In this document: positions 1-58,267 of the stretch, piece by piece
Numbering within the stretch: the stretch's first letter is position 1
Layout of the letters: every line of letters begins with the position of its first letter
NCBI GenBank assembly: GCA_905178155.1
Contig: CAJINV010000004.1
Coordinates: 10,523,655 to 10,587,654 of the forward strand
Direction: 5' to 3'
From: Amoebophrya sp. A120
Taxonomy: Eukaryota; Protista; Dinoflagellata
DNA length: 64,000 nt
Program-made: the position numbers and the translations under genes
Notes under the pieces: generated by a model
The model's database searches: none
Told to the model about the DNA's origin: nothing
Seen by the model: only the letters and a program-made list of their open reading frames with translations

Positions 1-1634
1 AAGTTGCACGCCGCGCCGATGGAAACCACGATGACCACGAAGATCGCGGACAGGTACTGCAAAAAGTCCTTGGCGAAGAAGGATTTCTTTTCCTTCGCAC
101 CACTTTTATTACCCTCTTTCTTCTTGTTTCCCGTGGTCTTTTTGTTGCCCGAACCAGCAGCTCCTCCGTTCAGTGCCTCGTTCGCCTTTTCTTTTCCGAC
201 CACCGTGGCGAGTAACTCCTGCAGCGTTTTCATCTTGTATTCGCGGACAAACGAAGTGGCCTTCTGCATGATGTGCCGGTTGTGCTGGAGTTTCTGCAGG
301 GTCTCATCGGTTTCGAGGAGCTTGGTTTTGTGCTGGGCAAAGTCCTCCTCGGTCAGCGCCTCCTTGTTGTCCGACCGGTCCCGCAGATCGTCGCGCACAA
401 TGCGGTCGACGACGTTCTGGGCCCGCTGGATGTCCTCGTCCACCTCGATCTGGTCCTCCTCTTCCGCCCACTGGTACAGCTGCGGGTACTCATCCACCAG
501 GGTCTGCCCAATGTGGATATGCATTGCAAAAGTATCGTACTCGTAGTAATTGCATTCATGCATTACAAATCTCTTTCTCAAGGCAAATCAGCACTACAGA
601 TTTAATTCGTAATGCTGGGCTAATTTGCAATGCAATTTATACTAGTACGATGCTTTTGCATTGCATAGTGGACACCCTCAAACAACCAGGCGTCCAGGAT
701 GGTCTTCGGGTACTTGGTGGCGTTCGGGACGCGGTTTTCTGATAATGGTGTTTTGCGTTTATAGATTTGTAGCCACGCATGAAGATGAGATGAAGCCACT
801 ACATTTGTGTGGTTGCATGGGCACGACAATGATTGAGCATGCGCATCATATATACCCGCTCCCCATTCGCCATCCCGAGCGGCGGCTTCGTCCCACGTTT
901 CCGCGACGTAGGACTGGTATTTCTGCGGCGCGTCCCGGACCAGCACGAGGGCCTTGTCTTGCATCTTCTTCTTGAACGCCCGGATCCCCTTCTCCGCGTC
1001 GTCGCCGATCCACTTCACGTTGGTCAACTCGAACGTCTTCACCCGGCGTGCCCGGTCGTGCTCCGGCGTGTGACGCATCTTTTGTTTTATGCCCGATAAA
1101 GTAGTTTGTTCTCTGTTTCTTACATGCAAGCAACAGTGCCTTTTGATGTTTTGCGTTCATCATCTGTAGGACGACAAAATGAGGAACCAAAGAAGGTACC
1201 TGACCACCCTGCGCCCGCCCGGTGAAAGTTGTGGGCCCGGTGATGTTCACAACCCAGGTGACGGTGAGGTTGCTCATGATTGTGTCAGAAATTGTATCGG
1301 TTTTGTTCTCCGACGTTGCAGTTATGCTGCTATCTGTTTCATTTCCAGTTGTCGCTTCCGCAGCAGCGGCGGGAGTTTCTTCAGCAGTGCCCCTTGGGCT
1401 TTCGTCCTGTTTACCGATATCTGCGGCTGGAGCGGGGACGGCAGCATGATCGGAGGCTGCTGTAGTTTGCTCCTGTGCAGCCTGTTGCGCGGGCTCCTGT
1501 GCCGCTTGGTCGGGGACTGGCGTTGGTGTGGCTTCCGAAGTGGTTTCTTGGGCTGTGGGTGCGGGATCGGGAGAGCCACTTTCCGCTCGGATGGCGACAG
1601 TGGCGAGGGCAAGAAGTTTCGAACGACGTAGCAT
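1..1634 (-). CDS. Hypothetical signal-peptide protein with C-terminal hydrophobic segment, multi-exon, runs off the left edge
   Basis: N-terminus MLRRSKLLALATVAIRAE, then an Ala/Thr/Glu-rich linker. Removing introner 518-667 plus one TSD joins ...FEGVH to IGQTLVDEYPQ..., and the frame stays open to base 1 ending in YLSAIFVVIVVSIGAA. Confidence 0.65.
518..667. mobile_element. Introner (TIR family B), non-canonical intron
   Basis: TIR tatgcattgcaaaagtatcgtactcgta / tactagtacgatgcttttgcattgcata; TSD gtgga at 513-517 and 668-672; removal restores the ORF. Confidence 0.9.
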
Positions 1635-1959
1635 TCTTAGGAGGTTTCTTTTTTCAGGAACGGAAAGGGTGCTGCTCTGCTCGAGGAGGCGCAGCTTGAG
1701 TGGTGTCTAGTTAGGTTGCTTCACAAATTCCAGTAATTTTTGTAGGGAAGCTCCTCAAAATTAATGGCATGCCAGTTGGATGAATTGGCTGTGAGTGAGC
1801 GTCTCTTCGCTAGTCGTAGCGCTGGAACAAGGTTCAATTTACCGCCCAGAAAGGTTTTTTTTTTGAACACACTGGAGAGAGACGGCACGCAAATTTCTGC
1901 ACCGTGGCGACGCAGCGGTCGTATGCGTATCTAGTAAAAGTGGCAACGCGGACGCAGGC

Positions 1960-4799: not shown

Positions 4800-7700
4800 T
4801 CACTGGACGGAGTGCCGCAACTTGTGCTCCAAGCTCTTAAACGCAAAAAAAGTTCCAACCCACAGAAGCGCCATTCCGGTGATGCAAAGTGCTGGCTGCG
4901 CCATCGGGTACGGGGAAATGAGGCACAACACTGCGACCTGTTTTCATTGTCGTGTTCTGCCGCATGATCATGAGATGACGCGAACATATGCTTCTTCACA
5001 GCAGGAAAAACCGATACATACTGCATACAATCGTAACTATCGCATGATGACAAGCACACAATAAAAATAAAATGTACCCCGCAACTCTCCATCTTCTGCT
5101 TGAGTTTTCCCTCTGAAATCGCCCGGAGCGCGCCCTGTTTGGCGGACGCCGAGGTGTTGTACACCGCCTGAAAATAGTCGCGGGTGCGGACCCATGCGAT
5201 CGCAAGTTCCATGCAGATCAGCAGAAAGCACGTGAGGAGGAGACCGCAGTTGAGGATGTAGGTGAGGGCTGTTTTGTTGTTCGACAGATTGTTTTTTAAT
5301 AGTTAATTTTCATTCACGTATGATAAAGTCCGTCAATGCACGATAATATGACCCAAACAGACAAGTAAATTTTTTGCAAAACAAAAAGATCTCCACCTCC
5401 GGCGTCGCCGCTTACTCCTTGGTTCAAAATGATCAGCGTCCACAGGCAGGTGCAGAACACCACCTTGTCACACTGCGCGTCCACAAACCCGCCCCATATC
5501 CTGAGTAAAAACGTCCCCACCCCAGAGTTGCCATGCAGATTTGCATTGACAAGGACATTTGTGATGCGCATCCCCATGAGAGCCATTTCCAGTCGTGTTT
5601 TGGAATTTGTGATGCTGTGAACAGGATGAGCAGATGAATCTGTGATGCGGCTGCACATGCTGACCTGCACTACACTGCGGAGTGCAACTTGTCATGCGTG
5701 ACTCACAAAACTCCTAGATTTGTGTTGCAAAATCCTTATCCTGACTCTGGTGTGGGGACGTTTTTACACAGGATATCCCATCGCCCATCGTCATTCTTCG
5801 CGCGGCCGTCCTCCCGCTGCACCTTCGCGACGACCCCGTCCACGTGATCCAGAAAATCGTGGTACATCACCAAAAACGCGGCGGTGAGACCGTACTCGTA
5901 CTTCAGCAACCCGCAGATAACCAAGGTGAGTAAGGTGCGGGCGTAGGTAACGATGTTCGCCGTGAAGACCGTCAAAGTAACCGTTGGTGAGCACTTCTCA
6001 GTCATCATCATGTCGTGGTCTTTCTTGCACTTATTTTTCGATAAAACAACCCCACTGGTGCTTTTCTTGTTTTCCTCCTTGTCCTGGTGATTATCCAATG
6101 GTGCTAGCGCAGTCGCGACGAAACCCGGCACAAACTCCGCTGGCACCTCCACCTCCCGGGGGATGGCCTTGCAGAGGGGGCTGCAGAGCTTCTGGATCCA
6201 AAGGTAGTAGACGTCGTGAAGCCAGACGAGCACGTACATAACCTTCTCTAACCACTTGCAGGAGACGTCGTCCACGTTCCGCTCCGCGTGGGTCAGCTTC
6301 GTGCAGGTCACGTTGCAGCTCTCGTGTGCAGCAGAGGCGGTGGAGGTGTCGGGAAGTTTCGCTGCCGAGGACGAAGAAGTCTCTTGCAGCAAAGTCGTCG
6401 CGCTCGGACTGGTGGGAGTAGCAGCAGTAGCAGCGTTCTTCTTATTTCCGGCGTTGTTTTTCGTACTTTCCGACTGCTCAGGATCGAACAGATTTTTCAC
6501 CGTGCTGTTGTGCATTATTTTTTTTTCAAACTTCTAAAGGGAAGATGCTCTAAAACACACAACATACATTTGTCATGCGAATTCAGACCTACACAAACAA
6601 GAACAAGTTCTCATACTGTCCAATCCAACTTCTAGTTCTACAATTCGTATAACATTACCGTGGCTGGCGCATCCGGTACTTGGTCCAGGATTTCAAATTA
6701 TCAAATGCAAAAATGTCTGGGTCTGGAAGAATGCAATTGTCTGGCATGACTGGAGAATCTGTGTTGCATAGGCACGAAAAAGCCCTCTAACCTGTCCTGC
6801 AAAGACGCAGCTTGCCATGCGGAGTACGTAAGACATGACAGCCAAAAAATTTGTTATGCATAGCTGCGTATTGCAGTGCGTCTATCATTCATTTCTAGCA
6901 TTACAAGTTTTCAGACCCAGACATTTTTGCAGTTGATACAAATTTTCCTCGGTGAGCTCGGTGTTCTGCTTCATGTCCGTGATGGAAACCGGAGCTGATT
7001 AAGGAATTATATAATTTGCTCAGAATCTGTCACGCAGTCGACCTCATGAGAAAATGCAAATAACCGAAAGAAAACCAGCTATGCCATGTACTGTCACTGT
7101 CCGCGTGATCATCGCTGTCACTGGCCCGGCGGCTCAGATCGTCCTGGGAGGAGTCATTGGGCAAGTCCGGCGACTCGTGCACCCCGCCCGTGCTGGTCGT
7201 GGTCGAGGCGTTGCCGCGGGTCAAGCACGTCGTGGACCCGGAATTCTTCCCGATCGGCATCTTCAGTTCCTTGCCAATCGCCTCTCCGACCGCCGCGACC
7301 GTGGAATCCGTCACGGGCAGAGGCTATCAACTGGAAATATGTGGTTTGGGTCCTCTGGAAACTTGTGATGCAAGTCAGGGAACAGCAATGCACACACAGT
7401 AATGCAATGCAAGAGGAGCTCCTCTTTGCGCCCCCGCAATACAGAAGCGTCAGCTCAGCGCCATGCCAGACTACTTAACATGACAAATCTCGCAAAAATG
7501 TTCCAGACCCAGGCCGATATATTCAATTTGATAAAGGCGGCTCCGCAATCATCGAATCGTAGAGCGACTTTTCCTATGAATTGCAAAAGTATCGCAATCG
7601 TACTCGTATAAATGCATTACAAATCTCCTCAGCATGAGAAATAAGATTTGTAATGCGGATTTACCACAACAAAAAGATTTGTAATGCATGATTGCAATAC

Positions 7701-10700
7701 GAGTACGATACTTTTGCACAGGATATTTCCAACAGCTCCTTCTGCGCCTTGTCCAAAACCCCTTGCGTGTTCAGCCGCTCCTGCATATCACACAGAAATA
7801 AGCAGGCAGGTCACATTACTATCTAAACTGCAGCAGCTGGTCAAAAATGCATGCGAGGGGTATGTTCGGGGGTGTGTCAGGGGTATGCAAATGGCAGTCA
7901 ATCACGACCTGAATACAAATTTTTGGCGAAAAAGCAGAAGGTGGGGTATAAACATACCCCAGACACACCCCAGACACACCCCAGACATACCCCAGACAGA
8001 CCCCCGAACACACCCCAGGCAAAAAGTCCGAACATACCCCAGACACACCCCGGACACACCCCGGGCAGACTTTCGGACACACCCCGGNNNNNNNNNNNNN
8101 NNNNNNNNNNNNNNNNNNNNNNNNNNNNNNNNNNNNNNNNNNNNNNNNNNNNNNNNNNNNNNNNNNNNNNNNNNNNNNNNNNNNNNNNNNNNNNNNNNNN
8201 NNNNNNNNNNNNNNNNNNNNNNNNNNNNNNNNNNNNNNNNNNNNNNNNNNNNNNNNNNNNNNNNNNNNNNNNNNNNNNNNNNNNNNNNNNNNNNNNNNNN
8301 NNNNNNNNNNNNNNNNNNNNNNNNNNNNNNNNNNNNNNNNNNNNNNNNNNNNNNNNNNNNNNNNNNNNNNNNNNNNNNNNNNNNNNNNNNNNNNNNNNNN
8401 NNNNNNNNNNNNNNNNNNNNNNNNNNNNNNNNNNNNNNNNNNNNNNNNNNNNNNNNNNNNNNNNNNNNNNNNNNNNNNNNNNNNNNNNNNNNNNNNNNNN
8501 NNNNNNNNNNNNNNNNNNNNNNNNNNNNNNNNNNNNNNNNNNNNNNNNNNNNNNNNNNNNNNNNNNNNNNNNNNNNNNNNNNNNNNNNNNNNNNNNNNNN
8601 NNNNNNNNNNNNNNNNNNNNNNNNNNNNNNNNNNNNNNNNNNNNNNNNNNNNNNNNNNNNNNNNNNNNNNNNNNNNNNNNNNNNNNNNNNNNNNNNNNNN
8701 NNNNNNNNNNNNNNNNNNNNNNNNNNNNNNNNNNNNNNNNNNNNNNNNNNNNNNNNNNNNNNNNNNNNNNNNNNNNNNNNNNNNNNNNNNNNNNNNNNNN
8801 NNNNNNNNNNNNNNNNNNNNNNNNNNNNNNNNNNNNNNNNNNNNNNNNNNNNNNNNNNNNNNNNNNNNNNNNNNNNNNNNNNNNNNNNNNNNNNNNNNNN
8901 NNNNNNNNNNNNNNNNNNNNNNNNNNNNNNNNNNNNNNNNNNNNNNNNNNNNNNNNNNNNNNNNNNNNNNNNNNNNNNNNNNNNNNNNNNNNNNNNNNNN
9001 NNNNNNNNNNNNNNNNNNNNNNNNNNNNNNNNNNNNNNNNNNNNNNNNNNNNNNNNNNNNNNNNNNNNNNNNNNNNNNNNNNCTGGCAAGGCCGCGCCCT
9101 CGGTTGGTCTTGGGTAGTCCTTTGGGGGGGCGCCCCGCCCAGGGGCGCAGAAACAGGCCCGCGCGCCCTGGTTCGGGAGAACAACCTCCAGGACGGCCGC
9201 GCCCTCGGCTGGTCGTGGGTAGTCCTTTGGGGGGGGCGCCCCGCCCAGGGGCGCAGAAACAGGTCCGCGCGCCCTGGTAAGGCCGCGCCCTCGGTTGGTC
9301 TTGGGTAGCCCTTTGGGGGGGGGGCGCCCCACCCAGGGGCGCAGAAACAGGCCCGCGCGCCCTGGTTCGGGAGAACAACCTCCCGGACGGCCGCGCCCCG
9401 CCCAGGGGCGCAGAAAAAGGCGCATTTTTCCACGGGGGCGCCGGCACCACGGGCGCCAAGCCACCCCGTTCTGTCGCAAAAAAAAAACCCTGCCGCATCA
9501 TGGGCAAGAAAAGCCACCGCGGGTGGCCCTTCTTCGCCGCAAGGTCGCAGCGCGGGGACTCTGTCCCCGCGCCATGACCTTGTTTGTAATGCAAAAACAA
9601 ATACACAGGGAAATCTGTCATGGCCATGGGCGAGGCCATAGCATGCTGTTTAGGGCATGCAATATAGACTTTTTTGTCTATTTATTTTTGCATTACAAAT
9701 ATGACCTGCCGGTCTTTTTCTGGGGGATACTGCAGGATGATCTCGATGTCGGTGCTGGAAACCCCCTTGGTCCGCGGCAAGTAGTGGCACTCGCAGACGT
9801 TCTATCAAATGCAAATATGTCTGGGTCTGGGAGATTCCGGGATTTGTCATGCTAGTCCGGCATGACTCTGAGCTCTGTATTGCGTGGCCGCGAGTAGCTC
9901 CTGCTCCCTGTCATGCAAAAACGCAGTTTCTCATGCGGAATACGCAACTCAGAACCATGGAAAAAACCGGTCATGCTTGGCAGCGCATTGCAGTGAGCTT
10001 ACTACTCCATTCCTTGCATCACAAGTTTCCAGACCCAGACATTTTTGCATTTGGTAAGTTCTCGAGCATCTTGTCGAACCGACCCAGGTGGTCGTCCCCC
10101 ATGATGAAGATCTTCGCTATGGAGGGGCTCTCAAACGTTACATTCTCAACTGTTACACGATTTGTCATGCAAATGAGCATCAGCATCCACACGGTGGAGC
10201 TACTTCGCATGACAAATTTCGGAAGGGCTAAATAGGAATAGCATGGAAAGCTGTGCCGCATTTGTAATGCAAGACTTGCAAGCTCCGGCCTTTCACTTTT
10301 CCAGTTCTTGCATCACATATTCATGTAAGAACAGTTGAGAATGTAACGTTTGAGAACGCCATATCCGCCCCATGCTCGACGCAGTACTGCCGCTTGTCCT
10401 CGAGGGAGTGCTCGATGAACACCTCAGACACGCATTGCAGGGACTTCACGAGCTGGACGCGGGCCTGCTCGTCAAAGATCGGCTTCTTGCCCTTCTTCTT
10501 CAGAGTCAACGCGTCGGAAGAGACACCAACGATCAGGCGGGTACCGAAAGCCGCGGCGCGTTCCAAGATGAGCAAATGACCCAAATGGAACAGATCGAAG
10601 GTGCCGAAGGTGATCACCTGTCATAGTTGTTTTGCAGTGCTCTTGCATGAAGACCACGGCAGTCTAAAGATCAACACTGGTGTACCAAATATAGCCGCCG

Positions 10701-11564: not shown

Positions 11565-11850
11565 TATGCTTTGCAAATACTTGTCTGGGTCTGGCACGAC
11601 ATAATTCCATGACATTTGTTGTGGCTGGTGCAGCACGACGGGAGAGTAGAGTCTGTGAGAAGAACTCATGATGCGCTAGAGCAAAGCCATTTGGTTGTTA
11701 TGCAAAAATGCGATCTTCACAGGCCATGCGGTTTACGAGAGACGACGTCATTGAAAAAGTTGTCACGCGTGGCCCCGAAGCTCCGTAGAAGTTTATCATC
11801 CTCACAGCAGCATCACAACTTTCCAGACACAGACGCGTACTCACTGGATA
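11565..11850. mobile_element. Diverged family-A element outside any recognisable CDS
   Basis: tatgctttgcaaatacttgtctgggtctgg / ttccagacacagac..cactggata; TSD gcttt/gctct. Confidence 0.75.
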
Positions 11851-12861: not shown

Positions 12862-12983
12862 ATTCGTGCGACTTAAACCGTGATTCAATTTGTGCGACTT
12901 AAAACGTGACTCAATTTGTGCGCTATAGTACGTGACTCTTTCGTGCGACTTGAGATTCGTGCGACTTAAAACGTGATTCAATT
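12862..12983. repeat. Short degenerate ~26-bp tandem repeat
   Basis: gtgcgacttaaaacgtga(t/c)tcaatt repeated about 4 times. Confidence 0.75.
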
Positions 12984-13153: not shown

Positions 13154-16100
13154 TCAGCCGCTGCTGCAGTAGGTGTGGATCAGCCCCAGGAGGTCCTTGT
13201 GCTTTTCCTCCGTGTCCAAATGCAGGGCTGCTTCCGTCAATCCAAACGAATACTTCTCGACGTGCGCCGTGAGTAAGTCTAAATTGAACGGATTTGCAAT
13301 GCTGTGATAGAACAAAACCGCAACGAAGACGCAGAAGCTCAGCATCGCAAGGCGTAACTGCTTCCCCGCAGCCAGCACATCCTTCAGGTTCCGGGGCGGG
13401 AGGTGGTTCGCGTTTTCGGAGGTGACCGGTATGTATCAAAAGTAAAAATGTCTGGGTCTGGAAACTTGTGATGCTGGGTGGCGTCTCATGATGACGCTAC
13501 AAATGCTGGCTCAGCATGACAAGTTTCTGAGATCTTAGGCGTTGCCTATTCTGCATGACAAACTGCGCTTCTGCATCACAGAAAAACGGAGCTCTTGGGT
13601 AACGTGCATGACAGATTTAAAAGTCATGCCAGACAAGCATGACAGACATGAATTCTTCCAGACCCAGACATTTTTACAGTTGATAGTATGGTCGCGAGAA
13701 CCATGCATTCGGACAAGTCCAGCAGCATGTAGACCAGCGCGCCGACAAACGCGATCTTGCTAAAAGGCGACTTCAACCTTTCTTCTGTCGTCTCCCCGTC
13801 CACCTTCATGCTGTACTCCGACGGGTCGTTGCTGACTTTGAAAAAGTTCGCCAAGTTCACGGTTGGTAGAGACACTGTGTGCTTTCCCGTTGCGGGCGCG
13901 ATGCTCGGGAGTAGTAGAGGGGTCAGGAAGAAGAGCAACGAAGCAAAAATCTTCGCGGACAGTCGCAATTTGAACCGCAGCAAAATTTGCTCCTGGATTT
14001 CCGTTTGTAAGCACTGGAGCAAAACATTGTCCACAGCGTGCTGGTACTCGCTTTGCCGGTCTTGCTCGTACCAATTTTCGAGTTGTGGCTTTCCCACCAC
14101 GTACTCCGTCGTCGACGGGTCTAAATGGCCCAACTGTCCCCAGGAAAAACGTCCCAACCCGATATTTTTTGTCGTGCGGACCTGGTGGAGGCCTAAAATG
14201 TTTCTCATGCACAGCTCCATCGAGCACCTCCTTGGCTAATGCTATCGGGATAAAATTGGTCGTGATTTAATCACGATGAGACCATCGACTTGTGATGCGA
14301 CTGCACAACGAGCTGATGCTAACCACGACTAGTAGTACATTAGAGACGACCGAATAAAGTTTTTGTAATGGTGCGCAACGGCCAAATAAAGTTCTTGCCT
14401 TTTGTGTAGCAAAGCTCGTGCCATCGTGACTGCAGGATGGGAACGTTTTCACGGAAGATACCGATCCGTTCACCGCGACAACCGCTTGGTTCTGTCGCAG
14501 TAAATGTGTCGGACTGCTACTTTGCTGGTGCCCCGCGGCTGTGTGCAGAGAGAAAGCTTGTCCTCCTGCTCCCCGTTGTGGTGGCCCTCTGCCCTGCGCA
14601 CTACCTCCTCCCGCGATTGGCGGCGCGTAGCCCATCACGGCCATGCCGGGTAAGTTCACTTGGTGCTGCTGCAGTGGCTGTTTTGGCTTCGGCGACTCCT
14701 CCACCTCGATTATCCCAGAGAAAAAAGCCGGCAGGTCGTATTTGTAATGCAAAAATAAATACACAGAAAAATTTGTCATGGACAGCCCCATAGCATGCTG
14801 CTTGAGGCATGCAGTGCAGATCTTTTTGCGCGTGTGTTTTTGCATTACAAATACGATCTGCCTGCTTTTTTCTGTGTGATATCGATGCTGAGTTGCTTAA
14901 ACCGACGAGACGACGTGCGGGATGGAGCGTCCGGACTGTTGTCCTTTTCGTTTTCCTTCTCAAAAACGTCACCACGTGGTCCTGGAGGCTCTTTCTTGAT
15001 GTCCTTGCTAGTACTCGAAGAGGAGCCTCTCTCCTGGTAAAAATTCTCGTTCGCTGTGTGTTCATCTCTGCTTCTTCTAGTTCGGTAGGAGTCCGGCCTA
15101 CTTGGCTTGACCGGCGGCCCTTGTTCTTCCGCACTGGAGGTTGCCGCGGCCATTTGGAGCTCGCCCTCCGCGAGATATTTTGTCATGCCCGGCATCAAAT
15201 CCCGGGTAGTGCTGCCGCTGCTGGCGGAGGAGGAGGAATGGCTGCCGGGGCGAAGATTGTCAAAATTCAACACGCCGGTCACTAGCAGAACCTCGCTCGG
15301 GCTGCTACCCGGATTCGGATCATTTCGGGCGCCACCGCTTTTCATTTGATTTTGATGTTCATGATCTTCCGAGGTTAATACTTCAGCTTGATACGTTGTT
15401 CCTGCCGCTGTTTCTCCTCTTCGGTCATGGTCTGTTGTTCTCTCTGAGAGCTGCAATTCATCCTCACTCCTGTGCGCCCCCTCCCGCATCTGCGCCCTTG
15501 CGAGCAACGCCGCGTCTGTCGCGGTGAGCTCGCTCAACGGATCCGGTCGCATCGACGTTGTCGGCGACCGCGCGCCGTCCTGCCGGATCGCTGCGGCGAG
15601 GATGTGCTCTGCGGGTTGGTGCACGCCCGCGCTCGGGGAGTCGAGGTGCAGGTGCTGAGAGGCGGTCGGGGAGTCCAGGTGGAGACCGCCCAGCATTTCT
15701 ACTTCCCCCGCCTCCCCGTTATTTTCTCGGAGTGCACCATTCGTCGGCGAGTGCACCGGCGACAGCGTCGCTTCAGCGATTTGGTGCGCCGTGTCGGGCG
15801 GCGCCTGCTCGGGGGAAATCAAATTTTCCGTGTGCTGGAAGTACACGTATTTGTGGTAGAGTTCAAACGCTTTGGGCACCGACCGCACTTTCAGGTTCAT
15901 GTTCAGAAAGGATAGCTTCACCGTCGTGTCCGAGCGGCGGGGGAAACGCGGCTCCTGGTAGGATGACGCACTTGTTGCTGCTGCACCTCCCAAAGGTGGA
16001 GCTGCACTTGCAACACCAAGGCTATTAATGTGTTGCGGCGAAGGAGATCGCGGGGCGACGACGCTCGTGTTTATTTCGCCATTTTGAACAAGACCTTCTT

Positions 16101-19100: not shown

Positions 19101-19735
19101 TAAATTTTTGACCGCGGTACTTTCTAGTGCGAAAACCTAAATCGCGTGAGAGCTTGCGTCTTTGCATGACAATGAACATGCAGCGTTCTTCCGCAACATG
19201 CATTGCAGCGCTGAGGAGTAGTATGCGAGTTCAGCAATAGAAGTCGTGCAGTAATATTTTCCCGACCCGGACATTAGATTTGCAGTGGATAGGAAGCCAC
19301 TGGTTGTCGTGGTTGTCAGCGTCCCGCTCATGTTGTACAGGCTGGCGTACGCTTGCTCGAGATCGGTAACGGTGCCTTGTTATTTTTCGATTTTTTTTTC
19401 CATCACGCAATTCAGATTCTTGTTGATATCGGGATTGTTCTCGCGCCCGCGACTTATCGTGATTCATTCAGCAATCTTCTGGAAAAAAAAAAGAACCACA
19501 ACATTCTCAAAACCAGTAGTACTCGGCAAGCCCGCCGCTGCTCCTCCGGCCACGGCACTGCCCGCGGGTGCGATGTAGATCCCCTGCACTGCTTGCGCCG
19601 TCTGTGTGTCATCCTTGCCGGAGTCGCACAAAAAGAGCAAGCGCGACGACAGCAGGAGGAAGACGACTGCGCCCGCCAGCACCGGCAGCTCGTGGTGCCC
19701 GCGCAAGATGTAGCCCGCTTCCGTTCCGCGGTACA
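13154..19735 (-). CDS. Large multi-exon polytopic membrane protein of unknown family (may be more than one gene)
   Basis: ORF blocks 18024-18950, 16615-17526, 16445-16678, 14845-16305, 13624-14220 and 13154-13378 carry many hydrophobic helices. Four introners join blocks in frame (SGF/QLAY, PWS/LEID, LSI/EVEE, ATI/PVT). Confidence 0.55.
13434..13685. mobile_element. Introner (family A)
   Basis: tatcaaaagtaaaaatgtctgggtctggaa / ttccagacccagacatttttacagttgata; TSD gtatg. Confidence 0.9.
14711..14881. mobile_element. Introner (family D)
   Basis: tatcccagagaaaaaagccggcaggtcgtatttgtaatgcaaaaa / tttttgcattacaaatacgatctgcctgcttttttctgtgtgata; TSD tcgat. Confidence 0.9.
16310..16449. mobile_element. 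Introner (family B)
   Basis: tatcctgtgcaaaagtatcgtattcgtataaatgca / tgcatttatacgagtacgatacttttgcacagctcata; TSD aactc. Confidence 0.9.
19018..19291. mobile_element. Introner (family A)
   Basis: tatcaaacgcaaaaatgtctgggtc / gacccggacattagatttgcagtggata; TSD ggaag. Confidence 0.88.
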
Positions 19736-22875: not shown

Positions 22876-22892
22876 TCCCGCCCGCCCACTCC

Positions 22893-38090: not shown

Positions 38091-45048
<6,958 letters not shown>

Positions 45049-45740: not shown

Positions 45741-48700
45741 ATGAAGGTGTTCTACCTGCTCGCCGCCGCCACGGCATCCGAGCAGCTGCGCGGTAGCACT
45801 GCGTTGGATCAGAGCTCGCGCACATCTCACGCAGAGCAGCATGCGGGGAAAACGAAAAGCCACCCCAGCCACCGGCACGTGGTGCTGGATGCGGATGCCT
45901 TTGTTCCCGCGGATACTGCCCAAGAATCGCCGCAGCATTCTCACGAAGACGAGAAGCTGCTGCGGAGCGAGCCATTTGCGCACGGCAGAAACATGATGAA
46001 AACTTCTACCTCACAGCACCACCACAAGCAGACGCGGCTTAGTCCCGCCGCGGCGAAGAGGAAGCACAGTCTCCAGCAGCACCGCGTCGGCCATTCGGGG
46101 CGGAATCACCATCAGCACAAGAAGCCGTCGCAGCATGGCGCGCACCTGGCCGCGAAGCTGCACCTGCTTCAGATCACCAAAAGCCGTGGAATATCTCGCA
46201 GAAAAAAACTAGCATACCATGTGTGTTGTATAATGCAAAGATAGCTTGGCCAGAAACGAAAGTCGATGGTCAATGATCATGGGAGCTCTGATAGCATGCA
46301 GCTTAATCGATGCAACTGTGACTACTTTAATTCACTTGATATACAATTCTGCATTAGCGGCACTAATAGTTTTTTTTTCTATGTGATACGTAGCACACAC
46401 TTCTTCGAGCGGTTCTGACCCGGAGCCCTTTGCCACAAAAGCCAAAGAGGTTGCTGACGCTATTATCGATAACAAGACAAGTGACAGCGATGATGACGTG
46501 GACGCCGCGGTGGATGCGCAGATGACCAATCTCGAGGGAACCTTCGCTGAGGGCCATCTTACCACCGATGGCGTTACCACGATCACGCCTGCTATCAAAA
46601 CGGTAGCTAAGGCCGCTGTCGCCGATGCCGGGGACGCTGCTTATCAAAATTGAAAACTTTCCCTCCCCATATTCAAAACGAAATTTCTGATGCTGGATCT
46701 GCGTACACAGTCTTGTTTTGAGGGATTGCAGCCAGATCTTCAGCCTGGCCAGGGGCGTTTGCGTACATTTGTTCCGAATGGGAAACTGCTACCCGGTAGG
46801 CCCAGCAGCATGGTATACCGCTTCTTAGGGGGAAGAAAGCCTCGGCGCTTGCCTTCTTGCAAGACAAGGCTGATTCGTGGTCATAAGTCTGCGGCACAAA
46901 TTATCCTCTTTAGTATGGGAAGGGGGGATTTTTCCTCCGAATTCCGCGGCTGATAAGGACACCATTAAGGCGGCGATCGAGCAACAAGCGCAAGCCATCT
47001 TCGACGCTGATGCTGGGAGGTAAAATCAATTGTTAAATCCCGCATGACAAATACGTAACTATTAACTTTTTGCACCGCGGGCCAGTTGCATGCTAAGTAC
47101 CCTTCTTGTTCGTTGGTGCTTCTCATTCTCTTACCACGTTTCTCGCGGAGGTTTGAATTTTGTGTAGAGGCAAAGTTGCGGCAAATCCTGTTCCGCGGAG
47201 CCTAATGTATAATGTTTGTACTATTGTAGAACCTTGCAAGCGACTTGATTTCTTTTTCTACCCAATGCGGAATGAGACTACAACTGATACAAAGCAAACA
47301 CAAACTACAGGGGCGGGATGCCATATCCCGTGCAAATATGTGTCGTCCGGGGTTGGAAACTTGTCGTGCAAAATAGTGAAAGTACACCACGAACAGAGTA
47401 CATTTTTAGTCAGCGAACCATAACAACTTCTCTGGCGACCCTGTGTCACGTATTTCGCATGCAAAATCATATTTCTGCAGCACCCCGAGCAAGTGGCGCT
47501 CGCGCAATTGCGCAAGAACAATATTTTATAAATTCATCGCAAACGAGTGGTCTAGATCTACAAACAGTCAGCACTCCAGTCAAACAATAGCTATTCCGGA
47601 CCCCAACGTATTTGCAATGCATAAGCCGCCGGACTTCGACGTGTCGATTAACAAGATTTGCACCGAAATGGAGATATCCCGTGTAAAGACGTACCAACAA
47701 CCCAGTAGTGAAGATTAGAGTTGTGCTACTTACACAAGGCCAGAAGCTTTATCGGTCTTGCATGACAACTTGGCTGCATCTCTACGCGTAGTCGTGACTA
47801 GCTACAGCCTCCGGAATGATAAATGCGTGATACGCATTCCGGGCATGCGGACTTTTTACCGTTCCGCATGCTCGAAATGCGTATCCGCATGCCCGTGCCT
47901 GACATTGAATGGATGTCAAGTACGGGTAGGCAAGAATGTGTGCTGCATTTTCTGTAGCATGACAGACGTGCTGGGATGAGTGCGTCTATTTTACACAGGA
48001 TGGAAGACCGTCGAAGCCTGCCAAACGGAGTGTACGGAGGCCTGGACCCACTGCATGGCGGTCAAGGACTATCGCACGAAAAAACTGCTTCACCGCCAAT
48101 TTGGAGGATATACTTGGCATGACATGCGAACAAAGAAAGTCTTCGGGGCGTGTTTCGCAGGGAAAACACCACTAGCAGAAGATTGAGTTTTGCCTTCCTG
48201 GCAGGACAAAATGCATGACAATTTTACAACAGTGAAGCAGTTTTTTCTTGCGATAATACGGATGCGCAGAAGGACATGCCGGTGGGACAAGTAGTCAATG
48301 CTGGTCAAGCAGCCGAAGCAGGAGCGGAGGCGTCCGCGGAGGAGATATGCAAGAAAAAAACTGTGTAAGTGTAAATTTGTGTTACGAGCGAGGCAAGAGC
48401 GTCACACTTCTCATTCTGGATGTGCGACATAGTCTAGTTTCATATTGTGGTGCTTTCGCTTTGCTGCTCATCCTACAAAGACAAAGTTGCACTAAAACAG
48501 TCGTTGTCTTGGATAGGGTGTGTGTGGCGCGGCAGGAGTGACTACGAGGTCGCAGGAGTGCTACTGCAAAGCCAAAGCATACAAGGACAACGCGGCCTGC
48601 ACCGAACCGCCGAAGGGGCACCTGTTCGATTTTATCGAAATGTTCTACAAAGGGATGGAGCCGGTATCAAATGCAACTGTGTCTCGGTCCGGATGAATGC

Positions 48701-49981
48701 CGATGTTTGTAATACGCCTTTTGCATGAAGACCCAGAAGCTCTAGCTTGCAACCAACAGCATTATTGGTTTGAGGAGGTGTCCTACTGCTGCTTATGCCC
48801 GCATGAGAAATCCCGAACTTGAATGGCAAGAAGTCGGGCGCTGTTTCTGTCCATGTATGATGACGGACTTGTGCGTGCTCTAGTACAATGCGCATGACAA
48901 GTTTGCATCTGGTCCTGCGGGGGCTTGCTCTACAACGCCGCTCGGGGTCCTCCGGTGGCTTGCTGCCAATGGATACTCGGAGCGACCATCAGAACTGCGT
49001 AACCGGTTGGAGCTACGAAAAAAAAAGAATGGCCGGTCGGGCCGGTCATTTTAGCATCACAAGTTTGCATGATCCTTCCAGACCCAGACGCAGCTCGTTG
49101 CAGTTGATACCCGGGTGGCGCCGAGGGGTTCAAAGTGGTCGCCGCGATGTGCACGAGCCACACCTTCCCCGCGGACATGAAGCTGGAAAACATGGAGTGT
49201 TCGATATTGTCAGGTAAAATCCATCCTCGACGTTCCCATAGTTCGTTGTATTCGAACGAAGGTTTCCATTTCTCATGCGCGATTTCATTGTGAGTACACA
49301 AATCAACTTGTGTCTGTGCTCGATGAAGAAGAAGAAGGCGAAGTAGAGACACAGCAGAGGCCCACTTTGCTAGCGACGTGTCCTGGTACAACTACATCGG
49401 GCAGTGCAGTGTATCTATCTGGAGTCCTGTCATGCTGTGTGCTTGCAACCACATACACTTTTGCGTGCCTGACAGCACTAGAATCCGTATCTGTTGTCAG
49501 TTCTTACGTGGCAATACAGCATGTAGAAATTTACTTTTGGATTTTGGGACGAAGATGGGGAGAACTATTTGCACTTCGATATCCGGCCGCCACTACGGCC
49601 GCGCCGGCGGGGGAAGGCGAGGGCGGGACCAACATGGCGATGATCGGCGGAATCGTCGCAGTCGTGGTGTTGCTCGGCGGTGTCGGGGGCTTCGTCATGA
49701 TGCATCAAAAGCCGGCGGACGGGGCGGCGGGCGTGGAGGGTGAGGGCGAAGCCGCGGAGGAGGAGTACATGGAGGGTGGTGGGGAAGGGGCTGAGGAGGG
49801 GGTATGTTATAATAATTTATTAGTCGTGCTGCGAATTTGTATGGATATGGAATTCGGAAGCTTTCGTAAGGTGTCCTTCTTCTTCCGCTACAAAATCAAA
49901 AACTGCATTCATGCACACCATGGACGAAATCAACAAAACAGGCCGAGGGCTGAGGCGGTGGCTCCGCGATCGAGTCTTTGA
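45741..49981 (+). CDS. Putative type-I membrane surface protein (His-rich N-terminus, Cys-rich domain), multi-exon, 3' end unresolved
   Basis: Signal-like MKVFYLLAAATAS; CQTECTEAWTHC; TM MIGGIVAVVVLLGGVGGFVMM; acidic tail; 4 introners. Confidence 0.6.
46642..46943. mobile_element. Introner (family G, eroded)
   Basis: tatcaaaattgaaaactttccctccccata / tatgggaaggggggatttttcc; similar to 53596-53917; TSD ctgct/ccgcg. Confidence 0.75.
47324..47623. mobile_element. Introner (A-like, diverged)
   Basis: tatcccgtgcaaatatgtgtcgtccgg / ccggaccccaacgtatttgcaatgcata; TSD tgcca/agccg. Confidence 0.75.
48665..49109. mobile_element. Introner (family A, diverged and long)
   Basis: tatcaaatgcaac..gtctcggtccgga / tccagacccagac..gttgcagttgata; TSD gccgg/cccgg. 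Confidence 0.8.
49395..49581. mobile_element. Possible highly degenerate introner
   Basis: catcgggcagtgca / tgcacttcgata weak TIR with an internal tgtcatgc. Removal in the 4|1 register gives CPGTT/AATTAAP. Confidence 0.4.
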
Positions 49982-52947: not shown

Positions 52948-53481
52948 AGATAAGGCGGCACCACAGGGAGAAACGGTTTTGAAGTTTGGAAAGTTTGACA
53001 GAGCTGGTTGTCACAATCTAGTAGTTTCAACAACTATCAGCCTTATAAGAAACACAAAGAACACGATGGGAACTACTTGCAGAACTTTTCTAGCGGGAAG
53101 TGACGCGAGGTCGTTTCAAAGAAACAAACAGAACTAGTTCGGTCTTTAGATCTTTCACCTGCGCGAAACGAAGTCCGCAGTGGTTCTTCCCATACGCAAA
53201 CCCAAGTTTGTTCCGAACTTTTGTGTCCAAAGCTTTTGTGCTTTTTGAATTTTCAGCTTCGCGTTCTCAGAGGCATACATCGATCTTATTTTTTCTGGTG
53301 TCGCTGTCGTCTCTGACCACCACGTGTTGCCTTTTGTAACTAGCGCGCCCAGCTGGCATGGATCAAATTTAAAATTTAGCAAAGAAGATGAAACGAGGAG
53401 TACAACGGATAGTTGTGATCAGGAATAAAAAGCAGACACACGACACGTGAAGAAGATCATATTCTGCAGAAGAAAGTAAAC

Positions 53482-55491
53482 ATGATTACCTGGGTGGAGC
53501 GCAGCGCCGAGAGTAGCAGTCCTGGCGCCCACAATGCGAATCACCAGAACTTCCCCGTTGGGGGTCTTGCCGTCCCGGAGGCGCTGGTTATGTCATATCA
53601 AAATGAAAAATCCCCCCTCCCCATATCAAAACGGAATTTCTGATGCTGGATCTGTGTACACAAATGCGCTCTGTATTGCAGGAAGGCACTGTGGCCAGAT
53701 ACCCAGCCTAGGCAGAGGCGTCTGGGTCTAGTTGTTCAGCATGGCAAACAGCTCCCCTTTAGGCCAAACAGCATGACAAACGGCGTCCATAATGGCGCGG
53801 CAGCTTCCGCCTTTGTCTTCTTGCAGCACAAATGTGATTTGTGGCCTCAAATCAGCAACGCAAATTTTCGGAAACATACCGTTTCAATATGGGGAGGGAG
53901 AGTTTTTCCTTTCGATATGTCATCCTCTGGCTCAACATCTGCCGCCGTGCATCACGGGGATACTATGTTGGCCGCCCACGTGGAAACGCAGCGGCACCGA
54001 GGAGCACCACCTGAAGGAGCCGTTGGACATCAGTTGTCTTCGGGGCCAGCATTGTTTCCCACTTCACGACACAAGAAGTTGAGAACCATTCCGTTCCAGA
54101 CCACGCAGCGGCATGTGCTGGCTATCTGGGTACTACTCATCATTTTCGTCCTCCTCGCCCCATGGCGAAGATTTTTCTCGGAAGATAAAGCGGACCAGGG
54201 AAATAACAGCGCCAGTAGTACAACCGAGTCGGATCATCCTCAACAGCAGAGCGACAACAGCCCTGGAAGTACAACAAGCACCACTTCTTCTGATACTGCT
54301 TCGGCAACAGGAGATCCAGACCTCCCGCCGCGAGTTGACCTGCTTCTCCACCACGAACTGTCCAACAGTTACGTTTTTCTCGGCGCGAGGCAGCATGTGC
54401 TCTTACTCCTCTGCTTGCTAATTGCCACGACGACGACGCGGCACGTGATCCTGCTCCAAGACCGGATTGTTCTTCACCTCGGCCCGTTTCCCGTGTGCTT
54501 GTTCCTGATCCGGATTCCCTACACGGCGATTCTGAGTGTCGACGTGCGACAGTCGTTTGACACCTGCGGCGGGAAGTGTTGCTGTAGTCTTGTTGGAGGG
54601 CGCAAGAAAACTGACGCAGCAGTGGATTGTTCTGGTCAAGATCTGGGGATGGACGATAGAACGCTGCCGAAACTACATACGAAAAAAGGCCTTTGGAAAA
54701 CATTCACCGACAGCCCGTTTTGGTTCTACCGCAGCTGGCTATACACTGGCTGTCCGATTTTCGGTGGGCATCATCAACTCGGGAGTTGCTGTCCCGCGGC
54801 TGTTGCACTGTTGGTGCAGCAGGCATCCAGGCGAGTGGAGCTGTTGACACATGCGGTTTTTTCAGGGAAGAAAGTTCTTCCAGTTCCGGACAGGAACCAT
54901 TATCATTCAGGACAGTCTCCGACACCACCGCGCAAAAAACACGAGTTTCTGTTCCTACGCGTCAACATTTCGGCGGTCGAGCGGCAGGCGTGGCAAGAAA
55001 GGAAAATCGCACACGCACATTTGCTTCCATCACCTCGCGGGGGAGAGGCTGGTGCAACAGCATCTTCAGTGAAAATAACACCAGATCAGGGAGCACCGCC
55101 AGCACTGAACACCATGGGCGATAAACCTCAGTTAGAAGGTATCCAGATGGTCAGCTCGGAAAAGAAAAATGATCATGATGTGGTAATGAACAACCTCGAC
55201 TTAGAACAGGGAACTCTCCTCAGCGCCGGTATTAGGTCGGGTAGTTTCCAAAGTACTGATGTGATACAAGAAATCTGCGTTGCTATTCCAGATGCGGATT
55301 TGGTGCAGCAATTTATCGAGCAGAAGTGGTACCAAGATTGCGAGTGCTCCACCTTAACTGAGGCGGTCTGGGTGCCGTGCGACGGATACTACGACATCTT
55401 GCAGGGCAGGAAAACGAGCTGTTACTCAGGCTGGTTCCGCTTGTACGCTGCTTTGGGGAAATGTAGAAAGGCAGTGGGTGTTCGTTTCTGA
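53482..55491 (+). CDS. Hypothetical membrane protein
   Basis: ATG 53482 joins the long ORF in frame after removal of introner 53596-53917; two hydrophobic segments. Confidence 0.65.
53596..53917. mobile_element. Introner (family G)
   Basis: tatcaaaatgaaaaatcccccctccccatat / atatggggagggagagtttttcctttcgata; TSD tgtca. Confidence 0.88.
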
Positions 55492-55685
55492 AGATCCTTT
55501 GTTGTGGTCCCTTAGATCTTCTCAGTAATTTTCGTTGACCTAGACCTTACGATCCTACCTTTCGTTCCCCACTGCAGTAAAAGAAAAACAACCTGCTGGA
55601 TCGAGTTTGAGTTCCGCCGCTTGCCCTCCTAAAAAAAACAATGGTTGCGTATTGTGGAAAAAAGTAGCATTCGCTCAATTGTCAT

Positions 55686-58267
55686 ATGCTGAAGAAAAGA
55701 AAACTCATGGCGGTGGAAAAGGAACTGAGCGCTGACGCCGCGACCACCAGCGATGCGGGGCAGGCGCAGCTGTGGGCGTACAAGGACAAGCTCAGTGCGG
55801 AGGAAAAACAATCGCTGCAGGAGCAGATTTCCGCGCTCGATCTGAAGCAGCTCAACGCGCTGTTTCTAACCGCCACGAAGAAGCACTTTGGAACGGGAAT
55901 AAAGGATGAGGAACGAGGCTCATTACTACCCGAGGAAGATGAACTCTCGCCTCCGACAAAAGTGCAAACGCTGGAAACCCTGGATCCAGCTGAAGTCAAA
56001 CGCCTCGAGGGGCTAGGTGAGGTGTTTTTCTTGGGAAAGTTTGCTCCACATTGTTTTTCTTGTGAAACTGCAGGGCTGCATAGTACATGGTAGTATTCGA
56101 CGTGTTGCAGTTTTCATGCAACGCGAGCAAGCTTCTAAAAACAGTATGATCTTCCCATTGTCCAGATCCTCATCCTTTGCAGATTCATTGGTTTCATCCA
56201 ACCCACTTCCAGGTCGCACTGCCATTTCCGGCGGCAAAGTTGCGGCCCTCTGTCTCGGCGGCGGCGCTGGCACCCGGTTGGGGATCGACGGGCCAAAGGG
56301 CCTTTTCCACCTACCGCAGCTTCCCTCCAGAAAATGTCTGTTCCAGCTCTTCGCCGAGAGGATCAAACGATTGAAAAAGCTCTGCAACGCGACCACCCTC
56401 CCGTTTGTCATCATGACCAGCCCGCTGAACCACAAGGCGACCACGAAATTTTTCGCCGAAAACTCCTACTTCGGACTGCCACCAAACGAGTGTTTGTTCT
56501 TCCCGCAGGGCACGCTCCCCGCGTTCGACTACGAAGGGAAAATCCTGTTAGAAACGCGGTCGACCATTTCCCTCAGCCCCGACGGGAACGGCGGTGTTTA
56601 CCCGGCCTTGGAGAGATCCGGGGTGCTGTCCAAGTTGAAGTCCTTCGGGATCGACTACCTGCACCTCTTCGGCGTCGACAACATCCTCGTCCGCCCCGCG
56701 TATCATTTGTGAAAACGTCCCCACCCCATAGTTGTCATCCAATTCTGCATGCCAAAAAAGTCTCTCATGCGGAGCCCCATGAGAAGCATTTTCTGGTCGT
56801 GTTTTGGAATTTGTGATGCTATAATCAGCAAAATATGCTAGATCTGTGATGCTTCTGAACTACCAAAAGAGGATTATACTACAAGGACAAACTTGCCATG
56901 CGAAACAACCAAAGACGGCTAATTTGTCTAGCGGACTTGACTCTGGTGTGGGGACGTTTTTACTTAGGATACCGCGGACCCCCGGTTTATCGGCTACCTG
57001 ATCGACCAGAAGGCGGAAGTGGGGAACAAGTCCGTGTTATGAATTGCAAAAATGTCTGGGTCTGGAAGATTGCGAGACTTGTCATGCTGATCTGGCATGG
57101 CCCTTAAATCTGTGTATGTAGCGCTTAGGGCCCTTCCGTACGGCCATTTGTATGTCCCGCAACGGGGAGGTTCGCCTAAGTCGGTCACTTGTATGCGAGG
57201 CGTTGGGTTACCCGGTCGGCAGAGCCGATCCACAACGAACGAACGTGGCCACAAACAGCCTCTCTCGCCTGTCATGCAAAAACACAGTTTCTCACGCGGA
57301 AGACGCAGCAGGGAAGCACGAAAAAGCTTGTCATGCTTGGCGGCGCATTACGATGCATTTGTTATTGACTGTCTTGCATCACAAGTTTCCAGACCCAGAC
57401 ATTTTTGCATTTGATACGTGTGGAAGGCCGATCCGGAGGAGAAGGTCGGGGTGATCGCGAAGAGAGCGGACAAGTACTGCGTCGTGGAGTACAGCGAACT
57501 CTCCGGGAAGCACAAGAATCTCCGGGACGAAAACAGCAACGCACTGTTGTTCGGCGCGGGTAACATCTGCAACCACTTGTTCAAGTTGGATTTTTTGGAG
57601 CAAACGGTTTTGCCCAACATGGAGAACAGCTACCACGTGGCGGAAAAGAAAATACCGGTCGCGGACGATGGAAACGAGGGGAAAACGTCGAAAAAGCCGG
57701 AGAAGAACAACGGGATAAAACTGGAAACCTTTGTGTTCGACGTGTTCCCCTTGACGGACAGAATGGCGATTTTGGAATGCAAACGCGACGAAGAGTTCGC
57801 GCCGATCAAAAACGCGGAGGGCACGGACTCACCCGCGACGGCGTGGTATCAAATGCAAAAATGTCTGGGTCTGGAAGAATGCAACTTGTGATGCTATTTT
57901 TGGAATCCAAAAAAATCTGTATTGCATGAGCAGCAAAGGGAGTCGATTTTTGCTACGTGGAGAGGGGATTTGTCATGCTGAGCAGGCATCAAGATGCCAT
58001 CAAAAAATCAGTGACGCTAGGGCATGCATCACAGACATCATGGCTCATGCAAAATGTGCATGACAAGCTCCGAGTCTTCCAGACCCAGACATTTTTGCAC
58101 TTGATACGTGGGACATGATATCAAAATTGCACAAATCCTGGGTCGAGGCCGCGGGCGGGAAGTGCGAGGGTTCGGTGGAGGTGTCGCCGTTGGTCTCCTA
58201 TTCTGGGGAGGGCTTGGAGGACCTTGTAAAAGGGAAGACGTTCCCTGATGGGGCGGAGATAAAGTGA
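55686..58267 (+). CDS. UAP1: UDP-N-acetylglucosamine pyrophosphorylase
   Basis: LGGGAGTRLG..PKG, IMTS, FFPQG, SPDGNGG, VDNIL..ADPRFIG, EKVG, VVEYSE, GNICNH, GIKLETFVFDVF, EFAPIKN, VSPLVSYSGEGL. One GT-AG intron plus 3 introners; stop 58265-58267. Confidence 0.93.
56701..56971. mobile_element. Introner (family C)
   Basis: tatcatttgtgaaaacgtccccacccca / tggtgtggggacgtttttacttaggata; TSD ccgcg; joins RPA/DPRF. Confidence 0.92.
57038..57416. mobile_element. Introner (family A) with ~130-bp internal insertion
   Basis: tatgaattgcaaaaatgtctgggtctggaa / ttccagacccagacatttttgcatttgata; TSD cgtgt; joins KSV/WKAD. Confidence 0.92.
57847..58106. mobile_element. Introner (family A)
   Basis: Near-perfect ~31-bp TIR; TSD cgtgg; joins TAW/DMIS. 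Confidence 0.93.

What the first reader, a model, noticed from the sequence alone, without database searches (positions are those of the whole stretch)
518..58106. Multi-family introner system: TA...TA MITE-like elements with 5-bp TSDs acting as non-canonical introns
Seen: about 27 elements, mostly 140-450 bp, in at least 7 unrelated TIR families. Nearly all begin TAT(C/G), end in TA (mostly GATA or CATA) and are flanked by a 5-bp duplication. They sit inside conserved motifs of UAP1, SRP54 and the CDP-alcohol transferase, and removing the element plus one duplication restores the frame each time. For TSDs TCCAC (518-667), CATAC (13434-13685) and CTTCC (19018-19291), read in transcript sense, no sliding of the junction gives GT or AG. 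Known: IR/DR-bearing non-canonical introners are described in Amoebophrya. Inference: they all derive from one DNA-transposon lineage with TA termini and a 5-bp TSD, which I cannot assign to a superfamily.
Basis: partly seen in the sequence, partly recalled or inferred. Interest (0 to 1): 0.8.

Follow-up and report, generated by a model that had tools for sequence, protein, structure and literature searches.

The report
Transposon introns cut without GT-AG
These are the already published transposon-derived introns of the marine parasite Amoebophrya A120; transcript assemblies lack every one that could be checked, all fitting one fixed cut position beside the element ends, and the bases kept at those ends point to a likely spliceosome that needs only a U and a branch A instead of GT-AG.

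Summary
The window is Amoebrophrya-type DNA matching Amoebophrya sp. A120. Its 32 elements (TAT-N7-AAA ends, 5-bp duplication) are the introner elements of Farhat 2021; Gozashti 2025 lists an A120 family with 'TA/TA termini, 5-bp TSD'. Transcript contigs from one sample lack 18 of 18 elements in two tested stretches, always element+5 nt, never GT-AG. Decayed duplications fix the cut one base before TAT and four after ATA, so the element ends, not the repeat, set it. This scan reported that register earlier on other A120 DNA. New here: in transcript sense the ends decay asymmetrically. In 282 oriented copies from another assembly, intron +2 U and the A seven bases before the 3' cut never change, while their mirror positions do (11 vs 0, 0 vs 3; p=0.003). 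This favours a relaxed spliceosome branching at that A over a symmetric hairpin nuclease; no lariat was observed. No transposase was found. The ends fit IS3EU/GingerRoot, but their 6-bp duplication is not met.

The parts
518..667 (-). introner, 150 bp, repeat 5/5
   Evidence: not RNA-tested
5497..5775 (-). introner in CDP-alcohol phosphatidyltransferase motif, repeat 4/5
   Evidence: not RNA-tested
6699..6938 (-). introner, repeat 5/5
   Evidence: not RNA-tested
7325..7533 (-). introner, repeat 4/5
   Evidence: not RNA-tested
7575..7725 (-). introner, repeat 5/5
   Evidence: not RNA-tested
7786..9729 (-). 171-bp-family introner carrying a nested insertion and an N gap, repeat 5/5
   Evidence: the loose end at 9730 equals 7751-7780, i.e. 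element+5 absent
9803..10056 (-). introner, 5' end TAC; allowed cut -6..-1
10118..10363 (-). introner; allowed cut -1..0
11565..11850 (-). introner; allowed cut -3..0
13434..13685 (-). introner, repeat 5/5, removed in RNA
14135..14460 (-). introner, 3' end ACA; allowed cut -2..0
14711..14881 (-). introner, repeat 5/5, removed in RNA
16310..16449 (-). introner, repeat 5/5, removed in RNA
19018..19291 (-). introner, repeat 5/5, removed in RNA
32967..33152 (+). introner with fully decayed repeat in a desaturase-like His box (label recalled)
   Evidence: -1/+4 removal gives an open frame; not RNA-tested
38830..39135 (+). introner in SRP54, repeat 5/5
   Evidence: not RNA-tested
39195..39459 (+). 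introner in SRP54 motif, repeat 4/5
   Evidence: not RNA-tested
39940..40084 (+). introner in SRP54, repeat 4/5
   Evidence: not RNA-tested
40156..40473 (+). introner in SRP54, repeat 2/5, 3' end ATG
   Evidence: not RNA-tested
43826..44087 (+). introner in SRP54, repeat 5/5, removed in RNA
46192..46388 (+). introner, repeat 2/5; allowed cut -2..-1
46642..46943 (+). introner, 3' end ATT; allowed cut -3..-1
47324..47623 (+). introner behind a 12-nt exon; allowed cut -4..-1
   Evidence: table 5c
47675..48002 (+). introner, 3' end ATG; allowed cut -3..0
48070..48255 (+). introner, repeat 1/5; cut fixed at -1/+4 (CT..AC)
48346..48515 (+). introner, repeat 2/5; cut fixed at -1/+4 (AT..GT)
48665..49109 (+). 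introner; allowed cut -4..0
49205..49581 (+). introner; allowed cut -3..-1
53596..53917 (+). introner, repeat 5/5, removed in RNA
56701..56971 (+). introner in UAP1, repeat 5/5
   Evidence: not RNA-tested
57038..57416 (+). introner in UAP1, repeat 5/5
   Evidence: not RNA-tested
57847..58106 (+). introner in UAP1, repeat 5/5
   Evidence: not RNA-tested
38091..45048 (+). host gene SRP54-like: 5 introners, 3 GT-AG introns
55707..58267 (+). host gene UAP1: 3 introners, 1 GT-AG intron

Best explanation
These are short non-coding inverted-repeat elements of Amoebophrya A120, likely spread by a cut-and-paste transposase, that are absent from spliced transcript contigs together with five flanking bases, at a register of one base before the leading TAT and four after the closing ATA, likely removed by a relaxed spliceosome that branches at the first A of the closing ATA. 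Shown: removal of element+5 nt, a single compatible register, independence from the duplication and from GT-AG, and removal in both orientations. Inferred: the first T of the element is read as intron +2 U and the next A as +3, the same GUA pattern as the host's ordinary introns but with +1 free. [quoted passage not shown] The inner TIR stem would bring the two sites together and may stand in for U1, which Farhat could not find. Because both ends read TAT and 1+4 equals the 5-bp duplication, a fresh insertion in either orientation would restore the original mRNA. The mobilising enzyme is inferred to be an integrase-like DDE transposase.
For: RNA: 8 of 8 elements in 9450-21400 and 10 of 10 in 43750-54100 are skipped by exactly length+5, in runs and mostly the same contigs that also lack GT-AG introns. 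It was written down before the second lay; the chance for those 10 under a random cut is 8.6e-4. 0 of 18 can be written GT/GC/GA-AG. Same-family copies 9803 and 13434 lie in opposite orientation in minus-strand genes and both are removed. Asymmetry: with detection blind to the first three bases and strand called from flanking codons (27 of 27 calls right among 31 window elements), 282 oriented copies show TIR position 3 changed 11 times at 5' ends and 0 at 3' ends, and position 1 changed 0 and 3 times (Fisher p=0.003; p=0.011 with three mis-registered rows kept). The window adds 1 vs 0 and 0 vs 3. A(-7) never changes to G although that would keep a wobble pair. GT-AG introns have +3 A in 15 of 18. 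The first 4 bases are often predicted unpaired while positions 9-24 mostly pair. Published A120 annotation has N-T starts in 6,681 of 9,716 fam2 introns. Fixed branch-to-3' distances exist elsewhere (PMC2483917).
Against: No lariat, branch or snRNA pairing was observed. The RNA comes from assembled contigs of one sample and one study, RNA status is a guess by the tool, and contigs hide minority junctions; it may not be independent of the annotation. Raw-read runs X8-X10 gave almost no cover (94, 2 and 3 reads). GT-AG introns show only weak A at -7 (10 of 18, p=0.07; 5 of 9 RNA-supported, p=0.25). There is no U2-type consensus around the proposed branch A. At the strictest strand threshold, with mis-registered rows kept, the asymmetry is not significant (p=0.11, n=217). 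A spliceosome indifferent to both +1 G and the terminal AG conflicts with established step-2 recognition (own knowledge). The published N-T counts depend on aligner choices among equivalent junctions. No transposase was found.
Confidence: 0.6

Rival explanations
1. A spliceosome-independent nuclease/ligase, or a separate machine as proposed for euglenid nonconventional introns, recognises the TIR hairpin and cuts 1 nt before and 4 nt after its base.
For: The elements fold strongly (median z -6.2 against mononucleotide shuffles, 31 elements). The cut follows the TIR and ignores all four terminal bases except +2. U1 was not detected in A120 (PMC7789003). Euglenid introns leave as circles (PMC11282704).
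Against: Pairing predicts symmetric constraint, but decay is asymmetric in transcript sense. Terminal pairs are broken or predicted open in spliced copies such as 9803, 11565, 14135, 16310 and 46642. Several spliced copies fold weakly (z about -0.4 to -1.6). The kept U and A match the host's GUA.
Confidence: 0.22
2. The spliceosome removes them at -1/+4, but the branch lies further inside (for example in the repeated CATNAC motif), and the invariant A(-7) is a protein or pairing contact.
For: TGTNATGC/GCATNACA occurs 67 times in 8,760 bp of elements, in both orientations, against 7 in the other 54,245 bp, and resembles a yUnAy branch motif (recalled).
Against: The motif is nearly absent from GT-AG introns (2 in 2,478 bp) and its distance to the 3' cut differs between families, so it does not explain a fixed AG-free 3' site. 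It may equally be a transposase-binding motif.
Confidence: 0.13
3. The junctions are reverse-transcriptase jumps across hairpins between direct repeats, or DNA alleles lacking the elements; the elements are not spliced.
For: Hairpin plus short direct repeat is the classic setting for such artefacts (own knowledge). Some contigs retain an element (49174-49613). No DNA run was laid as a control.
Against: Junctions form where the repeat is 1-2 of 5 with no shared bases (48070, 48346) and keep one register. Elements carry stops or shift the frame in conserved genes. The same contigs lack GT-AG introns and differ from the window by about 1 base in 3.7 kb.
Confidence: 0.03

Closest known systems
Introner elements of Amoebophrya sp. 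A120 (Farhat et al. 2021, PMC7789003; seen: abstract, passages, sections 11, 12, 16, supplement passages and part 2; figures not visible)
   Same: Same organism (100% protein identity); IR motif 'TAT, seven less-conserved nucleotides, at least three As'; 3-5 nt direct repeats, 5 bp in Fig. S19; hairpins; RNA-supported removal; about 29,850 copies reported.
   Different: The paper calls splice sites variable relative to the hairpin and the border unknown, and rejects general transposase mobilisation. Here there is one register, a strict 5-bp duplication and strand-asymmetric conservation.
A120 introner families of Gozashti et al. 2025 (PMC12130899; seen: passages, 57 of 58 A120 rows of supplement file 8; files 13-14 not searched)
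   Same: Most rows are 'TIR DNA, Unknown'; fam38 is noted 'Ginger; 5-bp TSD, TA/TA Termini', with ORFs resembling Copia/Gypsy integrase regions.
   Different: TSD calls of 2-6 bp and varied splice-site co-option per family; no common register in what I saw. The main text says fam38 lacks Ginger homology, termini and TSD. I could not compare fam38 with the window elements.
IS3EU/GingerRoot DNA transposons (PMC10045372, PMC6839031, PMC12730594; passages)
   Same: TA..TA termini (TAYGG..CCRTA in fungal IS3EU) and integrase-related transposases, a fitting candidate mobiliser.
   Different: Their duplication is usually 6 bp; here 293 of 387 copies have a perfect 5-bp and 0 a 6-bp duplication. No transposase to compare.
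Euglenid nonconventional introns and Fritillaria introners (review PMC11282704 and bioRxiv 10.1101/2025.08.15.670264; passages)
   Same: MITE-like introns with TIR, TSD and non-GT-AG ends; Fritillaria uses a modified spliceosome.
   Different: Euglenid introns pair CAG/CTG at +4..6/-8..-6 and leave as circles. Fritillaria keeps preferred ends (AG-AC, AG-AT). A120 has free +1 and free 3' dinucleotides.

Membership tests
Amoebophrya A120 introner elements | Host is A120 | tested here: met
   P0010 is 100% identical over the query; 479 of 479 residues
Amoebophrya A120 introner elements | IR motif TAT + 7 variable + AAA | tested here: met
   column counts, against section 11
Amoebophrya A120 introner elements | 3-5 nt direct repeat at the boundaries | tested here: met
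   5 bp; 14 of 31 perfect, 293 of 387
Amoebophrya A120 introner elements | Removed from RNA with mostly non-GT-AG ends | tested here: met
   18 of 18 removed, 0 of 18 GT/GC/GA-AG
Amoebophrya A120 introner elements | Repeated, hairpin-forming | tested here: met
   16 of 32 have 5-163 hits over 70% of their length in 128 loci; median z -6.2
MITE / non-autonomous TIR DNA transposon | TIRs, fixed-length TSD, no coding capacity | tested here: met
MITE / non-autonomous TIR DNA transposon | Cognate autonomous element or transposase | tested here: inconclusive
   none in the window or in 601 kb of loci; no whole genome held
MITE / non-autonomous TIR DNA transposon | Empty orthologous sites | not tested
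   the fetched loci share no gene with the window
IS3EU/GingerRoot | TA..TA termini | tested here: met
   58 of 62 ends
IS3EU/GingerRoot | 6-bp TSD | tested here: not met
   0 of 387 and 0 of 31 perfect at 6 bp
IS3EU/GingerRoot | IS3EU/GingerRoot-type DDE transposase | not testable with these tools
   no coding element available
Ginger1/Ginger2 | TG..CA termini | tested here: not met
   TGT at 7 of 886 ends
U2 spliceosomal intron | GT/GC..AG ends | tested here: not met
   0 of 18; 10 of 231 perfect-repeat copies can slide to GT/GC-AG
U2 spliceosomal intron | U at +2 | tested here: met
   31 of 31; 282 of 282 after dropping 3 mis-registered rows
U2 spliceosomal intron | Branch adenosine | tested here: inconclusive
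   invariant A at -7; conservation only
U2 spliceosomal intron | Lariat intermediate, snRNP dependence | not testable with these tools
   needs raw reads or experiment
Euglenid nonconventional introns | CAG/CTG pairing at +4..6/-8..-6 | tested here: not met
   ends are N-TAT and ATA-NNNN
Euglenid nonconventional introns | Circular excision product | not testable with these tools
   contigs only

The most novel reading that the evidence does not exclude
A120 runs a spliceosome whose whole code is N-U-A at the 5' end and a branch A exactly seven bases from an AG-free 3' end. A transposon whose ends read TAT on both strands and whose duplication is 5 bp (1+4) then becomes a scar-free intron at any site in either orientation. 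The same code predicts a different register for the TTA-ended elements of strain A25: a cut at the first T.
Probability: 0.45. Interest if true: 0.8.

Novelty: already known. Interest (0 to 1): 0.48.

Why it matters
The elements are published, but how tens of thousands of introns without GT-AG are removed is stated as open in the source paper and a 2024 review. A fixed -1/+4 register corrects gene models (one residue can change at decayed repeats) and names a single base to test as the branch point. If confirmed, it would show a spliceosome working without +1 G, terminal AG and perhaps U1, and would explain why this transposon can invade exons without harm. I did not find the register or the asymmetry in searches; Roy et al. 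2023 (Curr Biol) was not read and the figures of Farhat 2021 were not visible.

Tried and rejected
No whole genome is held, so no genome-wide transposase search was possible. No holder of the stretch is on record as RNA. Raw-read runs X8-X10 hit only element ends and count as no evidence. Joint rows set aside as repeat artefacts: 9929>10026 and 10736>10839 (4 further rows were not shown) and 43863>44056. The Copia-like gag/pol at 60279-64000 as mobiliser: no element-type end upstream, and 24 of 30 relatives carry RVT_2, so it is an ordinary Copia. Long elements: of 40 pairs over 600 bp, 4 had a matching repeat, with longest open frames of 85-199 aa; the 3.5-kb one (L033) is two short elements mis-paired. 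Viral contigs: 0 matches. Removal of element+2 nt (G-TAT..ATA-G) keeps UAP1 in frame (482 aa) but no RNA junction shows it. An apparent loss of G at intron +1 in the window did not repeat in the loci and was dropped. A at -7 in GT-AG introns is not significant. Rfam: 0 matches. Three of 22 variant rows were dropped as off-register by one base; re-registered they are TAT..ATA with perfect repeats.
Full report
Observation. Exact and relaxed scans plus RNA junctions give 32 elements between 518 and 58106. Twelve have TAT..ATA ends, a perfect 5-bp repeat and at least 13 of 22 TIR matches, against 0.17 on average in 100 local shuffles. Among 31 analysed, the ends read TAT(C/G)-N4-G-N-AAAA; 57 of 62 ends are TAT. 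Only a 5-bp duplication is in excess (125 of 155 positions), and it is perfect in 14 of 31. Interiors fall into 12-19 groups. Other copies in the runs diverge exactly at 53596, 48346, 44087 and 13685 (loose ends), which confirms the boundaries.

Identity. A UAP1 exon is 100% identical to a protein labelled Amoebophrya sp. A120, and 67% to the A25 protein. Removing one GT-AG intron and three elements plus 5 nt gives 479 of 479 residues of that 486-aa protein. Farhat et al. 2021 describe A120 introner ends as TAT, seven variable bases and at least three As, show 5-bp direct repeats, and leave the borders unknown. Gozashti et al. 2025 list 58 A120 families (57 rows seen), mostly 'TIR DNA, Unknown', with fam38 noted as 'Ginger; 5-bp TSD, TA/TA Termini'. 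The class, the termini and the duplication length are therefore in print.

Removal. Contigs of runs X3-X6 (one sample; RNA by the tool's guess) skip 8 of 8 elements in 9450-21400 (X3 only) and 10 of 10 in 43750-54100, each by length+5. Eight GT-AG introns are removed in the same runs, which shows processed mRNA. A loose end adds 7786-9729. Some contigs retain an element or a GT-AG intron (table 8). None of the 18 can be written GT/GC/GA-AG; one can be written AT-AC.

Register. Where the two repeat copies differ, the RNA shows which bases were kept. The first lay allowed only offset -1 (9803 needs -1 or less, 10118 needs -1 or 0), and I noted the prediction. The second lay agreed in 10 of 10 and fixed it uniquely at 48070 (CT..AC) and 48346 (AT..GT), where the repeat is 1-2 of 5. 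The chance under random cuts is 8.6e-4 for that set. The intron is N + TAT..ATA + NNNN. The repeat is not needed; it only makes a fresh insertion scar-free. Copies 9803 and 13434 of one family are removed in opposite orientations. Earlier notes of this scan reached the same register on other A120 DNA; I had it before reading them, and they are not independent support.

What reads the ends. A collection scan returned 128 loci (601 kb) from one other assembly with the same families at 72-94% best identity. 293 of 387 short copies have a perfect 5-bp repeat and none a 6-bp one. I detected 443 copies without using their first three bases and oriented 285 by flanking codon statistics (27 of 27 calls correct among 31 window elements). 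Of 22 variant rows, 3 were off-register and dropped. In the other 282 copies, TIR position 1 changed 0 times at 5' ends and 3 times at 3' ends, position 2 changed 1 and 4 times, and position 3 changed 11 and 0 times (Fisher p=0.003; 0.011 with the three rows kept; 0.11 at the strictest strand threshold with such rows kept). The window shows the same direction. A transposase or a paired stem would constrain both ends alike. What is kept in transcript sense is U at +2, mostly A at +3, and A at -7. The host's GT-AG introns start GTA in 15 of 18. This is what a spliceosome with free +1, a branch at -7 and a measured 3' site would leave; fixed branch distances are known in other lineages. Against this: A at -7 is only weakly enriched in GT-AG introns (10 of 18, p=0.07), there is no branch consensus, and no lariat was seen. 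I put this mechanism at 0.6, a hairpin nuclease at 0.22, an inner branch at 0.13 and artefact at 0.03.

Mobility. TIRs, a strict 5-bp duplication and many dispersed copies fit non-autonomous cut-and-paste elements (inference). No coding copy was found in the window or the loci. The nearby integrase belongs to an ordinary Copia. TA..TA termini match IS3EU/GingerRoot, but their 6-bp duplication is not met and Ginger's TG..CA is not met, so I do not file the elements in any superfamily. An integrase-like enzyme, as hinted by fam38, remains the best guess.

Verdict. Real, correctly described, and already known as A120 introners. The added value is a fixed register and a testable branch-point candidate, which I did not find in searches; Roy et al. 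2023 was not read, and figures and two supplement files that could bear on this were not seen. Interest 0.48.

Noticed in passing
window 7815-9596 and 41070-43712: Related GC-rich insertions: one inside the 7786 introner, one inside the 2.8-kb GT-AG intron of SRP54. Both sit between A and T, start TTAC and end in a hairpin plus CTTG; the second holds about 20 copies of a 96-bp unit with the same hairpin plus CTAG. Looks like a non-autonomous Helitron with tandem 3' ends (label recalled). RNA loose ends show both host introns are removed.
   Followed up: partly
window 21550-30307: Retroelement-like unit with split direct repeats (21550-21709 = 22716-22875; 22520-22718 = 30109-30307), a tyrosine-recombinase-like frame (PF00589, E=0.004, below cut-off), a gag-like gene that appears to carry GT-AG introns (by eye), and a 777-aa frame with a YVDD motif but no Pfam hit. 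DIRS/Ngaro-like (recalled), with an unusual repeat order.
   Followed up: partly
window 58663-64000: Copia-like gag (PF14223) followed in frame, past one TGA, by protease/integrase; the upstream part seems to be split by several GT-AG introns (by eye, untested). Cut off by the window end.
   Followed up: partly
window 47311-47322: 12-nt exon between a GT-AG intron and an introner; both are removed in all four runs.
   Followed up: yes
all elements: Motif TGTNATGC/GCATNACA occurs 67 times in 8,760 bp of elements in both orientations, against 7 in the other 54,245 bp; shared by unrelated families, role unknown.
   Followed up: partly
loci L001-L128: Mismatches between repeat copies are skewed: upstream A/T with downstream G/C 28 times, the reverse 9 times (p=0.003), at all five positions; unexplained.
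   Followed up: no
window 10618-11479: 862-bp GT-AG intron whose interior (10683-11417) matches L056 at 82%, so it holds another repeat. Its ends (G-TAT..ATG-ACAG) fit the introner geometry, hinting that some ordinary introns are old elements.
   Followed up: no
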